Source: Ruminococcus sp.
GTDB taxonomy: Bacteria > Bacillota > Clostridia > Oscillospirales > Acutalibacteraceae
Direction of reading: 5' to 3'
Length of the DNA stretch: 64,000 bases
NCBI GenBank assembly: GCA_024403825.1
Contig: JAKSRB010000001.1
Span: 10,124-74,123, forward strand
Shown here: one piece after another, positions 5,630 to 16,902 of the stretch
Layout of the letters: each line of letters starts with the position of its first letter
Position numbering within the stretch: the stretch's first letter is position 1
Program-made: the position numbers and the translations under genes
Notes under the pieces: model-generated
The model's input: only the letters and a program-made list of their open reading frames with translations
Told to the model about the DNA's origin: nothing
Databases searched by the model: none

Positions 5630-6556
5630 TTAAATCCTCGGCTTTTTGGTGTGAGCAAGAATATCCTTTAGAACAGCTTTTGTGTTAAGTTTTCTTTTAA
5701 CTGCCTCAGAGCTAAGAATAATTCTATGTCCGATTGTGGATATAAAAATATTATCAATATCATCAGGCGTAACAAAATCTTTGTTTTGGGCATATGCAAA
5801 TGCTTTTGACATATCAGCAAGTGATAGTGATGCTCTTGGACTTGCACCACGCAAAATAAGATTATTGTTTCTTGTTTTGTTTATAAGTTCAACTATATAT
5901 GCTATAACTTCATTGCTTATATATATTTCACGAACCTCCTGCTGAATTTTAATAAGCTCTTCCTTAGTGATTATCTGCTTGATATTATCAAGAGGATTGC
6001 TTGTTGAACGATTTAATATCATTTGACATTCTGCGTTTTTATCTGGGTAACCCATAGAAATCTTTACCATAAATCTGTCAGTTTGGGAATCTGGTAAAAG
6101 CTGAGTTCCTGATGCACCAGAGGGATTTTGAGTTGCAATAACTGAAAATGGATTTTCAAGGGGATAGGTGATACCCTCAATAGTTACTTGATTTTCCTCC
6201 ATAGCCTCAAGTAATGCAGATTGGGTTCTGCTTGAGGTTCTGTTTAACTCATCAGCAAGAAACAGATTGCAAAAAACTGCACCCTTATTAAAATGCATTT
6301 TACCGCTGATTTTATCATAAACTGAAAAGCCTGTTATATCAGAAGGCAAAGTGTCAGGAGTAAATTGCACTCTTTTATATTCAAGTCCTAAAGCTTTTGA
6401 AAATGCAACAGCTAAGGTAGTTTTTCCAACTCCGGGAATATCTTCAATAAGGATATTTCCGTTTGCGATAATGGCAAGCAATACTGTAATTATAGCTCGG
6501 TCCTTTCCATTAACAGCTTTTTTTACTTCATTCACAATATTTTGAAACATATTCAT
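5630..6556 (-). CDS. MoxR family AAA+ ATPase
   Basis: EDIPGVGKT Walker A, RVQFTPDTLPSD, LADELNR, ALLEAMEE, ATQNP and GASPRA motifs. Confidence 0.95.
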   Translation of the reverse strand: MNMFQNIVNEVKKAVNGKDRAIITVLLAIIANGNILIEDIPGVGKTTLAVAFSKALGLEYKRVQFTPDTLPSDITGFSVYDKISGKMHFNKGAVFCNLFLADELNRTSSRTQSALLEAMEENQVTIEGITYPLENPFSVIATQNPSGASGTQLLPDSQTDRFMVKISMGYPDKNAECQMILNRSTSNPLDNIKQIITKEELIKIQQEVREIYISNEVIAYIVELINKTRNNNLILRGASPRASLSLADMSKAFAYAQNKDFVTPDDIDNIFISTIGHRIILSSEAVKRKLNTKAVLKDILAHTKKPRI

Positions 6557-6640
6557 AATTAACCTCGTGGAATAATTAATATCTTGATTTTTAATTGCAC
6601 TAACAAAATTAAAATTTATTATCTGAATTTACTACTTTAT

Positions 6641-6669
6641 ATTATAACAGCAAATTAATGCTTCTGCAA
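6641..6669 (-). promoter_or_regulatory. sigmaA-type promoter for the MoxR operon
   Basis: Minus strand TTGCAG-17-TATAAT with extended -10 TG. Confidence 0.55.
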
Positions 6670-6934
6670 TATATCGGATGATAATTCCAATTTATTAAAA
6701 ATAATACAATTTGTATAAAATGCATCATTGTCACCAAAAATGAATTATACAAAATAATTTTCAACATTCAATTAAAAGTTACAAATGTGTAATAATTTAA
6801 ATATTCAGCTTACTTTCATACTGCTTTTTACATACAAAATGACGAAAACAAGGTGTTTCCCTTTCAAAATAATTCCTTTTTTTATGAAATTGGCATTTTT
6901 TTTGAATTTTTTTGCAAGAAATTCTATAAATATA

Positions 6935-6963
6935 TTGCAAAATTTAAAAAAGTATAGTATTAT
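6935..6963 (+). promoter_or_regulatory. sigmaA-type promoter for gdhA
   Basis: TTGCAA-17-TATTAT, predicted TSS ~6970. Confidence 0.6.
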
Positions 6964-6969
6964 ATATGT

Positions 6970-7030
6970 AGTCGGCGAAGGTGCTGCAACACATCAGACA
7001 GCTTAAGCCTTGCTGATGTGTTATTTTATG
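6970..7030 (+). promoter_or_regulatory. Structured gdhA 5' leader, putative attenuator
   Basis: Terminator-like stem AACACATCAG/CTGATGTGTT (6988-7022) followed by ATTTTAT. A competing helix pairs 6972-6982 with 7007-7016. Confidence 0.5.
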
Positions 7031-7038
7031 TGAATTAA

Positions 7039-8394
<1,356 letters not shown>

Positions 8395-8451: not shown

Positions 8452-8487
8452 AAACAAGCAATAGTGTTAAGCTGTTGCTTGTTTTTT
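8452..8487 (+). terminator. gdhA intrinsic terminator (near-duplicate at 44607-44638)
   Basis: AAACAAGCAATAG-tgttaag-CTGTTGCTTGTTT followed by TTT. Confidence 0.85.
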
Positions 8488-15509: not shown

Positions 15510-16820
15510 TTAGATATTTTTATCGGTTTTGCTGTTTTTTGATATTTCAGAATTATTCTGTTCGTTGTCAATCTTTTTTACTACTACCTTTATAATTCTT
15601 TGGTCTTTAACCTCCATAATAGTAAACTTAAATCCCTCAAGCTCAATACTTTCTCTCTTATTAGGAATAGTACCAGCATTTTCCAGTATAAATCCACCAA
15701 CGGTGACGCTATCACTTTCAATACTGTCCTCATCCATACCGAACAATTCAAGCAAATCATCAAATTCAATATCGCCATTTACAAGATATTCGTTCTTGCC
15801 GATTTGATAATAATTATGCTCAATTTCTTCGTCCTCGTCCCAGATTTCTCCAACGATTTCTTCAAGTAAATCCTCCATTGTCACAATACCAAGTGTTCCG
15901 CCATATTCATCTGTAACAATCGCCATATGTATTTTTGAGCGTTTAAAATAGCTAAGTATTTTCGATAGCTTTTGTGTTCTGAAAACAAAGTAAGGCGGAG
16001 CCATAATTTCCTTAATATCAGGAGTTCTGCCGTCTATCATACATTCAAGATAATCTCTTGTGTGCAGTACTCCAATTACATGGTCAATGGTATCCTCATA
16101 AACAGGCATTCTTGTATAACGGTTTTCAATTATTGATTCAATAATTTTTTCGTGGGAATCCTCAACATTTATAAATGTAACATCAACTCGTGGTGTTAAA
16201 ATTTCTTCTGCTGTTTTTTCGTCAAAGTCAAGAGCAGAACGAACCATTTTGCTTTCACTTTCCTCAAGAACTCCCTCTTCTTCGATGCTTTCAACGATAT
16301 ATTTAAGTTCATTTTCGGTTACAGATGGTTTATCTCCTGAGCTTCCTGCAATTTTCAATGCTAAGGCTCTCAGCTTAAGAAATACAAAAACAAAAGGTTT
16401 GAAAATAATCATTAAAGCTTTTAGCATTCCAGCTGTTGACATTGAAAAGCTGTCGCAATGCTCCTTTGCAAGGCATTTTGGCACAACCTCACCAAAGGTC
16501 AAAACAAGCAGGGTTGTACTTCCTGTAGCTATAGCAGAGCCGAGGTCACCGAAAAGATTCAGGCACAATACAGTTGCAATAGAAGAACAACTGAGGTTTA
16601 CAACATTGTTGCAAATTAATATTGTTGTCAGGGCATTGTCGAAATTCTCAATTACATATAGCGTAGTTTTTGCCTTTTTAACACCCTCGTCAGCCTTTTG
16701 CTGAATGCGGATTTTATTAACAAATGAAAAAGCTGTTTCAGTTGCTGAGAAAAAAGCAGAAAACGCCACAAGAATGAGTACAATAATGCCCATAATTATG
16801 TCTGATGTCAAAGTTTTCAT
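15510..16820 (-). CDS. Hemolysin-family/CNNM transporter (DUF21-CBS-CorC)
   Basis: SAFFSATETAF, FGEVVPK, tandem CBS (ILTPRVD, YTRMPVY, DEYGGTLGIVTMEDLLEEIVGEI) and CorC domain. Exact start uncertain (16811-16823). Confidence 0.92.
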   Translation of the reverse strand: MKTLTSDIIMGIIVLILVAFSAFFSATETAFSFVNKIRIQQKADEGVKKAKTTLYVIENFDNALTTILICNNVVNLSCSSIATVLCLNLFGDLGSAIATGSTTLLVLTFGEVVPKCLAKEHCDSFSMSTAGMLKALMIIFKPFVFVFLKLRALALKIAGSSGDKPSVTENELKYIVESIEEEGVLEESESKMVRSALDFDEKTAEEILTPRVDVTFINVEDSHEKIIESIIENRYTRMPVYEDTIDHVIGVLHTRDYLECMIDGRTPDIKEIMAPPYFVFRTQKLSKILSYFKRSKIHMAIVTDEYGGTLGIVTMEDLLEEIVGEIWDEDEEIEHNYYQIGKNEYLVNGDIEFDDLLELFGMDEDSIESDSVTVGGFILENAGTIPNKRESIELEGFKFTIMEVKDQRIIKVVVKKIDNEQNNSEISKNSKTDKNI

Positions 16821-16902
16821 CACTCCAAATAATTTTTCAATATTATACTACTATAATTCTTTAATATAATTATTGTTTTTAAGAAATATAAGGATAAAAA
16901 GA

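What the first reader, a model, noticed from the sequence alone, without database searches (positions are those of the whole stretch)
6970..7030. Candidate two-state attenuator or riboswitch in the gdhA leader
Seen: the leader starts ~7 nt after TTGCAA-17-TATTAT. Fold A is a terminator, AACACAUCAG(6988-97)/CUGAUGUGUU(7013-22) plus AUUUUAU. Fold B pairs the extreme 5' UCGGC(G)AAGGU (6972-82) with GCCUUGCUGA (7007-16) over 10 bp, plus GCUG/CAGC (6983-86/6999-7002), and consumes the terminator's 3' arm. The folds are mutually exclusive. I recognise no known riboswitch class here, and the glutamine riboswitches I know (glnA, Downstream-peptide) look different. Inference: a possibly undescribed nitrogen-, glutamate- or 2-oxoglutarate-responsive switch, or a protein-bound antiterminator.
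Basis: partly seen in the sequence, partly recalled or inferred. Interest (0 to 1): 0.62.

Follow-up and report, generated by a model that had tools for sequence, protein, structure and literature searches.

The report
Three-state attenuator before glutamate dehydrogenase gene
The short untranslated leader of the glutamate dehydrogenase gene of this gut Ruminococcus-like bacterium can fold into a terminator or a competing anti-terminator, and it looks like a protein-operated stop/go switch for nitrogen metabolism, not a metabolite-sensing riboswitch.

Summary
The promoter, the terminator (6988-97/7013-22 plus AUUUUAU) and the competing Fold B are all in the sequence. Fold B is stronger than about 98-99% of shuffled controls.

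A 5' hairpin P1, CGGC-GAAGGU-GCUG (6973-86), coexists with the terminator and is destroyed by Fold B. The leader therefore has three parts: anti-antiterminator, antiterminator and terminator.

A riboswitch is unlikely:
- The element spans about 50 nt.
- Rfam gives no match.
- Sister species with 90-95% identical GdhA keep the promoter and ribosome site but have a different leader core.

P1 resembles the hexaloop hairpins bound by ANTAR antiterminator proteins, but only weakly. It scores 9.2 bits with a model of 16 published sites. Canonical versions (12-20 bits) precede gdhA and glutamine synthetase genes in many gut Clostridia. Relatives L084, L085 and L174 combine a canonical hairpin with the same three-part design.

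In this design a protein holding P1 would promote termination. That is the reverse of normal ANTAR logic.

Verdict: a probable protein-controlled attenuator, a variant of a known kind, of moderate interest.

The parts
6912..6917 (+). Upstream TTGCAA box, 23 bp before the -35 hexamer. It is conserved in relatives. It may be a regulator-binding site or an UP-like element.
   Evidence: Sequence. The block TTGCA(A/G)GAAA..TTGCAAAA is conserved in the alignment of six related promoters.
6935..6963 (+). Sigma-70-type promoter: TTGCAA, 17-nt spacer, TATTAT.
   Evidence: Both hexamers are invariant or nearly so in relatives.
6970..6971 (+). Predicted transcription start. The initial sequence (A)GUCGG is shared with relatives.
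   Evidence: The position is 7-8 nt after the -10 hexamer. The RNA contig of run X1 begins at 6980 with no RNA coverage upstream. GUYG is conserved at this position. The start itself is inferred, not mapped.
6973..6986 (+). P1: a 5' hairpin CGGC-GAAGGU-GCUG with 4 bp and a hexaloop (G1, A2, G4, closing C-G pair). It is the candidate protein-binding site and acts as the anti-antiterminator.
   Evidence: It is part of the minimum-energy fold. It scores 9.2 bits with a covariance model of 16 published ANTAR hairpins, E 0.029 within the leader. It is not among the 11 best hits of the whole window.
6972..7016 (+). Fold B, the antiterminator: 6972-76 pairs with 7012-16, 6978-82 with 7007-11, and 6983-86 with 6999-7002. 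It consumes all of P1 and the first four bases of the terminator's 3' arm.
   Evidence: Energy -14.4 to -16.0 kcal/mol. It is the minimum-energy fold of nascent RNA ending at 7016-7020. p about 0.008-0.018 against shuffles.
6988..7029 (+). Fold A, the intrinsic terminator: stem 6988-97/7013-22, inner pairs 6999-7002 with 7007-7012, and U-tract AUUUUAU at 7023-29.
   Evidence: -14.7 kcal/mol. The simple scanner missed it because the loop exceeds 8 nt. Termination in vivo has not been shown.
7049..7054 (+). Ribosome-binding site AGGAGG, unpaired in the predicted folds.
7063..8394 (+). gdhA, NADP-type glutamate dehydrogenase (443 aa).
   Evidence: Sources name close homologues NADP-specific glutamate dehydrogenase.
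8452..8484 (+). Terminator at the 3' end of gdhA.

Best explanation
The gdhA leader is a transcription attenuator built from three mutually exclusive RNA helices.

P1 (6973-86), a small 5' hexaloop hairpin, forms first. As the RNA grows, the P1 loop (AAGGU) and its 5' arm can pair with GCCUUGCUG(A) at 7007-16, and the released 3' arm GCUG pairs with CAGC at 6999-7002. This gives Fold B, which holds part of the terminator's 3' arm before the terminator can form. The unassisted outcome is therefore expected to be substantial read-through into gdhA.

A trans-acting factor that clamps P1 would block Fold B and let the terminator (6988-7022 plus U-tract) form, switching gdhA down. The leading candidate for that factor is an ANTAR-domain nitrogen regulator of the NitR/GnfR type, because P1 resembles its binding hairpin and the gene is a nitrogen-assimilation gene.

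Shown: the three helices, their energies, their order of appearance, their non-randomness, and the recurrence of the design.

Inferred: that termination happens, that P1 is bound, by which protein, and in which direction the switch works.
For: 1. Fold B is the minimum-energy fold until 7020, and P1 plus terminator afterwards.
2. Fold B complementarity is rare by chance: 0.8-1.8% of shuffles and 0.2% of random 18-mers.
3. P1 has the features that define published ANTAR hairpins, read from the Ramesh 2012 seed alignment and the Geobacter GnfR site CAGGCAANGGCGCC. It is a hexaloop with G4 and A2 and a closing C-G pair. G at position 1 has one precedent, L. monocytogenes eutA P2 (GAUGAA). Only 5 hairpins of this pattern with stems of 4 bp or more occur in the window's 128 kb of two-strand sequence. 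This one alone lies in a leader before a terminator.
4. ANTAR-type hairpins are strongly enriched in gdhA leaders of other Clostridia. 30 of 89 canonical hits in 777 kb of loci fall in the 260 nt before gdhA. They score 12-20.5 bits. Their stem covaries: score 0.58 against 0.22 in shuffles, 0 of 500 reaching it. The same hairpin-plus-terminator unit precedes glutamine synthetase type I (L053, twice) and type III (L124).
5. Relatives L084, L085, L174 and L175 (GdhA 88-91% identical) carry a canonical hairpin CAGC-AACGGG-GCUG (15.5 bits) with almost the same stem as P1. It is followed by a non-overlapping 14-bp terminator and a Fold-B-like alternative, which is the best fold just before the terminator is complete.
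6. The leader is invariant across strains in four DNA metagenomes from different hosts. One RNA contig starts at 6980 and reads through.
Against: 1. P1 scores only 9.2 bits. That is below every bona fide site and below at least 11 background hits in the window. Position 1 is G, not A.
2. There is no second hexaloop hairpin, so the classical dual-hairpin ANTAR definition is not met.
3. The nearest relatives conserve neither P1 nor the terminator. In L168-170 the closing pair of the homologous hairpin is broken.
4. Whether this genome has an ANTAR gene is unknown. None of 10 small ORFs scanned in the window has the domain.
5. No 3'-end data exist. The U-tract is modest, and one strain carries T7024A, which weakens it.
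6. The support for the alternative fold in L084 and L174 is only p 0.08-0.10 when the whole 5' arm is blocked.
7. No ANTAR protein is known to promote termination.
Confidence: 0.4

Rival explanations
1. No regulation. Fold B is simply the lineage's usual 5'-terminal stem-loop, which protects the mRNA 5' end from decay. The terminator-like hairpin is a leaky, constitutive attenuator or mere UTR structure. P1 resembles an ANTAR hairpin by coincidence.
For: All close relatives pair their conserved 5' end (GUYGGYGAAAG) with a downstream segment next to a conserved YYUGCA motif, but in different ways and mostly without a strong terminator. The leader core turns over rapidly between species with 90-95% identical GdhA. 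P1 scores at background level in a whole-window search. RNA reads through.
Against: P1 and the strong terminator appear together, both here and in the L084/L174 group, as expected if P1 is needed only when a terminator is present. A -14.7 kcal/mol hairpin followed by Us, directly in front of a highly expressed gene, is costly if it serves no purpose. Fold B is non-random. The leader is invariant among strains.
Confidence: 0.3
2. Canonical ANTAR antitermination. An ANTAR regulator binds P1 and prevents the terminator, switching gdhA on, as in the eut, nasF and Lachnospiraceae gdhA/glnA leaders. It would act through a second, unrecognised hairpin or by steric hindrance, since P1 ends one base before the terminator stem.
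For: This is the known direction of action of all characterised ANTAR proteins (PMC3369931, PMC8934654). In 15 of 25 gdhA-leader examples from other Clostridia the hairpin overlaps the 5' arm of the terminator and would act this way. P1 abuts the terminator.
Against: P1 and the terminator coexist in the minimum-energy fold. No second hexaloop exists anywhere in 6965-7035. The only hairpin overlapping the terminator has a 9-nt loop without the consensus and scores 2.1 bits.
Confidence: 0.1
3. A factor-independent kinetic attenuator. The choice between Fold B and the terminator depends on RNA polymerase speed, pausing, NTP pools or temperature, or on another trans-factor such as a small RNA or a different RNA-binding protein that targets the conserved 5' segment.
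For: Fold B and P1 plus terminator differ by only 2-3 kcal/mol, and the winner changes within the last 2 nt of the stem. The 5' segment GUYGGYGAARG is conserved in relatives that lack P1.
Against: No specific signal can be named, and no partner sequence was found in the window. The idea does not explain the ANTAR-like shape of P1 or the canonical hairpin in L084 and L174.
Confidence: 0.1
4. A new metabolite riboswitch sensing glutamine, glutamate, 2-oxoglutarate or ammonium.
For: There are two mutually exclusive folds in front of a nitrogen gene, and no known class matches.
Against: The whole switch is about 50 nt of simple helices with no conserved internal loop or junction that could form a pocket. 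The sequence is not conserved in sister species. No related sequence occurs in any of the gdhA loci fetched by then. Rfam scans of the window and of 12 related loci are empty.
Confidence: 0.04

Closest known systems
ANTAR-target leader RNAs: EutV with the eutP/G/S/A leaders of Enterococcus faecalis, NasR with nasF of Klebsiella oxytoca, AmiR with amiE (Ramesh et al. 2012, PMC3369931; Walshe et al. 2022, PMC8934654)
   Same: A small hairpin with a hexaloop carrying G at position 4 and a closing C-G pair sits at the 5' end of a leader that contains an intrinsic terminator. It lies in front of a nitrogen-metabolism gene. The hairpin also coexists with the terminator, as P1 does in the eutP leader.
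   Different: Loop position 1 is G instead of A. There is no second hairpin overlapping the terminator. The hairpin competes with an antiterminator, not with the terminator, so binding would favour termination. The covariance-model score is 9.2 bits, against 12-20 for good sites.
GnfK/GnfR of Geobacter sulfurreducens (ANTAR response regulator; proposed RNA site CAGGCAANGGCGCC in nif-gene leaders; Ueki and Lovley 2010, PMC2995071), and NitR encoded next to glnA in clostridia (cited in PMC4676874)
   Same: These are nitrogen-status regulators acting on leader terminators. The site GGC-AANGGC-GCC has the same hairpin type as the gdhA and glnA leader hairpins found here in Clostridia.
   Different: In Geobacter, gdhA itself is controlled at the promoter by GnfM, not by GnfR. 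The window's loop GAAGGU departs from AANGGC.
Single-hairpin ANTAR-type attenuators of gdhA and glnA in gut Lachnospiraceae and other Clostridia (seen here in L010, L023, L053, L079, L124, L144, L162 and others; not characterised experimentally)
   Same: The target gene and the hairpin type are the same. The hexaloop has a complementary 'anti-loop' downstream: GCCUUU there, GCCUU at 7007-11 here.
   Different: In those leaders the anti-loop is the 3' arm of the terminator, so the hairpin is the antiterminator. In the window the anti-loop belongs to the antiterminator, so the hairpin is the anti-antiterminator.
PyrR with the pyr leaders of Bacillus subtilis, and S-box-type designs: anti-antiterminator, antiterminator and terminator (from my own knowledge, not checked here)
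   Same: There are three competing helices. An effector that stabilises the 5' anti-antiterminator hairpin causes termination.
   Different: The hairpin sequences and the protein family are unrelated. This is a resemblance in working principle only.
Glutamine riboswitches (glnA RNA and Downstream-peptide motif, Rfam)
   Same: The nitrogen-gene context.
   Different: No Rfam family matches at E<=10. There is no E-loop or pseudoknot architecture and no conservation.

Membership tests
ANTAR-target RNA (Ramesh 2012 definition) | Hairpin capped by a hexanucleotide loop with G at position 4 | tested here: met
   The loop GAAGGU (6977-82) has G6980 at position 4.
ANTAR-target RNA (Ramesh 2012 definition) | A at loop position 1 | tested here: not met
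   Position 1 is G6977. 15 of the 16 published hairpins used here have A; the exception is L. monocytogenes eutA P2.
ANTAR-target RNA (Ramesh 2012 definition) | Conserved closing base pair C-G at the top of the stem | tested here: met
   C6976-G6983. In the alignment of published sites, G at the 3' side of the closing pair is invariant and C at the 5' side is present in at least 90%. In the family alignment the C-G pair is present in 26 of 26.
ANTAR-target RNA (Ramesh 2012 definition) | Two tandem hexaloop hairpins separated by a short linker (5-12 nt in the E. faecalis eut leaders), the second overlapping the terminator stem | tested here: not met
   An exhaustive list of hairpins with 5-9-nt loops in 6965-7035 shows no second hexaloop of this type. 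The best second hit on the + strand scores 2.1 bits.
ANTAR-target RNA (Ramesh 2012 definition) | Significant score with a model of known sites | tested here: inconclusive
   Model R1 was built from 16 published hairpins. P1 scores 9.2 bits, E 0.029 within the 106-nt leader, but ranks below 11 background hits in the 64-kb window. Canonical gdhA-leader sites score 12-20.5 bits.
ANTAR-target RNA (Ramesh 2012 definition) | An ANTAR-domain protein (PF03861) encoded in the same genome | not testable with these tools
10 small ORFs of the window have no ANTAR domain. A crude motif scan of all loci found none next to gdhA.
Single-hairpin ANTAR attenuator (gut Clostridia nitrogen genes) | Hexaloop and 3' arm of the hairpin form the 5' arm of the terminator (hairpin and terminator mutually exclusive) | tested here: not met
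   P1 and the terminator coexist in the minimum-energy fold. 15 of 25 family examples do overlap.
Three-helix attenuator (anti-antiterminator / antiterminator / terminator) | Three helices in which the first excludes the second and the second excludes the third, with the second able to form before the third is transcribed | tested here: met
   Energies and growing-transcript folds. Shuffle tests. The same behaviour is seen in L084, L174 and L168.
Three-helix attenuator (anti-antiterminator / antiterminator / terminator) | Condition-dependent 3' ends at the terminator | not testable with these tools
   Only assembled contigs of one metatranscriptome cover the leader. These carry no 3'-end information.
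Riboswitch (any Rfam class, or a new one) | Match to a known aptamer family | tested here: not met
   cmscan of 6000-8000 at E<=10 gave only two chance hits elsewhere. Scans of 12 related loci found nothing at the leaders.
Riboswitch (any Rfam class, or a new one) | Aptamer conserved, with covariation, across orthologous leaders | tested here: not met
   Leaders of relatives with 90-95% identical GdhA share the promoter, the +1 region and the RBS but not the core. The core has no match in any of the gdhA loci fetched by then.
Intrinsic terminator | Stable stem-loop directly followed by a U-rich tract | tested here: met
   A 10-bp stem plus 4 inner pairs, -14.7 kcal/mol, then AUUUUAU. The U-tract is modest, and T7024A occurs in one strain.

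The most novel reading that the evidence does not exclude
An ANTAR-type nitrogen regulator is used here in reverse. In this window, and more clearly in L084, L085 and L174, its hexaloop hairpin is wired as an anti-antiterminator. Protein binding would therefore cause termination of gdhA. The same kind of protein antiterminates glutamine synthetase and other nitrogen genes elsewhere. One RNA-binding regulator would then give reciprocal control of the two ammonium-assimilation routes: GDH off and GS on under nitrogen limitation. The result depends only on where the sequence complementary to the hexaloop is placed, in the terminator or in the antiterminator.
Probability: 0.2. Interest if true: 0.7.

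Novelty: new variant of a known kind. Interest (0 to 1): 0.45.

Why it matters
Glutamate dehydrogenase is a main entry point of ammonium into biomass in gut and rumen Clostridia. How these organisms sense nitrogen is largely unknown.

If the leader works as proposed, it would show that the small ANTAR hairpin can be rewired from an 'on' switch to an 'off' switch. The only change needed is moving its complementary partner from the terminator to an antiterminator. This would extend the known repertoire of a widespread regulator family. It would also supply a compact, testable RNA part of about 55 nt.

If it does not work this way, the result is still useful. It removes a riboswitch candidate. 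It also documents how fast gdhA leaders turn over between closely related gut species while the promoter stays fixed.

Tried and rejected
- **Genome search.** The genome could therefore not be searched for an ANTAR gene or for further copies of the hairpin before glnA, amtB or gltBD. This remains the main gap.
- **Rfam.** An E-value-mode scan of the leader and of 12 related loci found no family.
- **Second ANTAR hairpin.** None exists. The hairpin CAGC-UUAAGCCUU-GCUG has a 9-nt loop and scores 2.1 bits.
- **Repeat or mobile element.** The leader core is not one. It has no other copy in the window or in any of the loci fetched by then.
- **Strain variation for covariation.** Four DNA metagenomes hold the leader unchanged, apart from T6945C and two insertions after the terminator. 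They give no covariation signal.
- **Terminated transcripts.** Three further RNA runs do not hold the leader. Contigs cannot show 3' ends.
- **ANTAR gene beside gdhA.** None was found in the window's small ORFs or in the fetched loci.
- **Fold-B-like alternatives in Lachnospiraceae.** Leaders whose hairpin does not overlap the terminator (L102, L035, L095, L111, L098) were tested. None is significant, p 0.3-0.5. How those leaders work is unexplained.
- **Leader peptide.** Only a 5-codon ORF without an SD starts at 7017. This idea was rejected.
- **More relatives.** L172 (Acutalibacter muris), L176 and L178 were fetched. They have yet other leaders without the hairpin.

Full report
**What is there.**
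The window's 6557-7062 gap lies between a divergently oriented MoxR-type ATPase gene and gdhA (7063-8394).
- Promoter: TTGCAA (6935-40), 17 nt, TATTAT (6958-63).
- Terminator: stem AACACAUCAG (6988-97) with CUGAUGUGUU (7013-22), followed by AUUUUAU.
- Alternative Fold B: 6972-82 with 7007-16, plus 6983-86 with 6999-7002.

This is a 5' hairpin, P1, CGGC-GAAGGU-GCUG (6973-86), which coexists with the terminator.

**Energetics and chance.**

| Fold | Energy (kcal/mol) |
|---|---|
| P1 plus terminator | -18.2 to -18.8 |
| Fold B | -14.4 to -16.0 |
| P1 alone | -3.5 |

Folding transcripts of growing length shows that Fold B is the best structure for every 3' end from 7016 to 7020. P1 plus terminator wins only when 7022 is present. 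Because the last 10-14 nt of a nascent RNA are inside the polymerase, Fold B has time to form before the terminator can. I infer this; it was not measured.

With the terminator's 5' arm blocked, an alternative fold as stable as Fold B arises in 0.8-1.8% of shuffles of the 18 upstream bases. It arises in 0.2% of random 18-mers from the window.

The strand exchange looks designed. The P1 loop AAGGU is complementary to GCCUU (7007-11). The tetramer GCUG occurs twice (6983-86 and 7012-15), and either copy can pair with CGGC (6973-76). CAGC (6999-7002) takes up the displaced copy.

**Not a riboswitch.**
- Rfam has no match at E<=10.
- The element is about 50 nt of plain helices.
- The decisive test was comparative. 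I collected 181 gdhA loci.
- Relatives whose GdhA is 90-95% identical (L081-83, L086-89, L166, L167) share four things: the promoter including an upstream TTGCAA box, the first transcribed bases (GUYGGYGAARG), a YYUGCA motif and the RBS region. Their leader core is different in each lineage.
- The window's core has no match in any locus fetched by then.
- Within the species it is invariant across four metagenomes from different hosts.

**The ANTAR lead.**
Many gdhA leaders of Lachnospiraceae and other Clostridia begin with a hairpin of the form stem-C[AANGGY]G-stem followed by a terminator. This is the published binding hairpin of ANTAR antiterminator proteins.
- The seed alignment of Ramesh et al. 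2012 lists loops AAAGGC, AAUGGC, AACGGC, AAAGAC, AACGGG and GAUGAA, all closed by C-G.
- Ueki and Lovley 2010 give CAGGCAANGGCGCC as the site of the Geobacter ANTAR regulator GnfR.

I built a covariance model from 16 published hairpins only.

| Hairpin | Score (bits) |
|---|---|
| Clostridial gdhA-leader hairpins | 12-20.5, usually the best hit of their locus |
| Relatives L084, L085, L174 | 15.5 |
| Window P1 | 9.2 (E 0.029 within the leader) |
| Eleven background hits in the whole window | 10.1-15.8, all above P1 |

Further support for the family:
- Canonical hairpins are about 12-fold enriched in the 260 nt before gdhA, with 30 of 89 hits in 777 kb.
- Their stem covaries: score 0.58 against 0.22 ± 0.04 in shuffles, and 0.05-0.12 for slid controls.
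- The same unit precedes glutamine synthetase type I (twice, in L053), glutamine synthetase type III (L124) and purA (L045).

A nitrogen regulon of ANTAR-type attenuators in gut Clostridia is thus well supported. The window's own hairpin is only a marginal member. It has G4, A2 and the closing C-G pair, but G instead of A at position 1.

**Geometry.**
In 15 of 25 family examples the hexaloop and 3' arm are the 5' arm of the terminator, so the hairpin is the antiterminator. The window is different. P1 does not overlap the terminator, and there is no second hexaloop hairpin. What P1 excludes is Fold B.

The closest parallel is the L084/L085/L174/L168 group (GdhA 88-91% identical to the window's).
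- It has a canonical hairpin CAGC-AACGGG-GCUG, almost the same stem as P1.
- A non-overlapping 14-bp terminator follows it.
- An alternative fold pairs the hairpin's 5' arm and loop (CAACGGG) with CCUGUUG of the terminator's 3' arm.
- That alternative is the minimum-energy fold just before the terminator is complete. In L168 it stays so even afterwards.
- Its statistical support is moderate: p 0.005 in one set-up; p 0.08, 0.10 and 0.014 for L084, L174 and L168 in a stricter one.

In such a design a protein that holds the hairpin closed blocks the antiterminator and so promotes termination. This is the working principle of PyrR-type attenuators (from my own knowledge). It is the reverse of every characterised ANTAR system.

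**Weighing.**
For a functional attenuator:
- The folds are non-random.
- P1 and a strong terminator occur together here and in the L084 group.
- The hexaloop has a dedicated complementary partner.
- The gene context fits.
- The leader is constant within the species.

Against:
- P1's weak score.
- The lack of conservation in the nearest relatives. Their 5' ends are also paired, but in ways that look like ordinary 5'-terminal stem-loops.
- The modest U-tract, and one strain with T7024A.
- No 3'-end data.
- No knowledge of whether the genome encodes an ANTAR protein.

The only RNA evidence is one metatranscriptome contig from 6980 to 7305. It fits the predicted start and shows read-through.

My estimates:

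| Reading | Probability |
|---|---|
| Three-helix attenuator operated through P1 | about 0.4 |
| ...of which ANTAR-operated and reversed in sign | about 0.2 |
| Unregulated structure | about 0.3 |
| Canonical ANTAR antitermination | about 0.1 |
| Other kinetic or trans-acting control | about 0.1 |
| Riboswitch | about 0.04 |

**Earlier notes of this scan.**
Searches returned earlier notes that describe single-hairpin ANTAR attenuators on nitrogen genes in gut Clostridia and rumen Ruminococcus-like genomes. They agree with what I found independently for the family. None concerns this leader or the reversed geometry. I used them only as leads.

Noticed in passing
L053:2090-2182 (- strand) and L053:2432-2445 (+): In this Clostridiales MAG a divergent gene pair is fully wired with ANTAR-type units. 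Two tandem hairpin-terminator units (AUGAAC-AAAGGC-GUUCAU) precede a type I glutamine synthetase, and one unit precedes gdhA on the other strand.
   Followed up: partly
L124:949-1044 and L124:2470-2483: Two tandem hairpin-terminator units lie before gdhA. A further one lies between gdhA and a type III glutamine synthetase gene (GSIII_N domain).
   Followed up: partly
L045:2187 (- strand): A canonical ANTAR-type hairpin (GUGAAC-AAAGGC-GUUCAU) lies upstream of adenylosuccinate synthetase (purA), divergent from gdhA, in Clostridium sp. N3C. This suggests purine genes may belong to the same regulon.
   Followed up: partly
window 6912-6917 and 6935-6940: Two TTGCAA boxes lie 23 bp apart; the second is the -35 hexamer. 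The pair, or more copies, is conserved in front of gdhA in the relatives (L081, L084, L166-168) while the leader changes. This hints at an additional DNA-level regulator site.
   Followed up: no
L009, L102, L035, L095, L111, L098 (gdhA leaders): These Lachnospiraceae leaders have a canonical ANTAR hairpin that does not overlap the terminator. They also lack both a recognisable second hexaloop and a significant alternative fold (p 0.3-0.5). How binding would affect termination there is unexplained.
   Followed up: partly
window 16458-16471 (- strand): This is the best hit of the ANTAR hairpin model in the window (UUGC-AAAGGA-GCAU, 15.8 bits). It lies inside the 437-aa ORF 15510-16823, so it is most likely chance.
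   Followed up: no
window 7024; and after 7039 and 7046: Strain variants: T7024A weakens the terminator's U-tract in the bovine metatranscriptome strain. One-base insertions after 7039 and 7046 occur in several metagenome strains. T6945C lies in the promoter spacer.
   Followed up: partly
L081-L083, L086-L088 (gdhA leaders of the commonest R. bromii-like lineage): These carry a different leader: a hairpin UGUAGUGC-UUUACU-GUGCUACA, then CGGAA-loop-UUCCG followed by UAUAAUUUAU. L088 carries changes that strengthen pairs in the first stem and a different loop in the second. This is a separate structured leader worth its own look.
   Followed up: no
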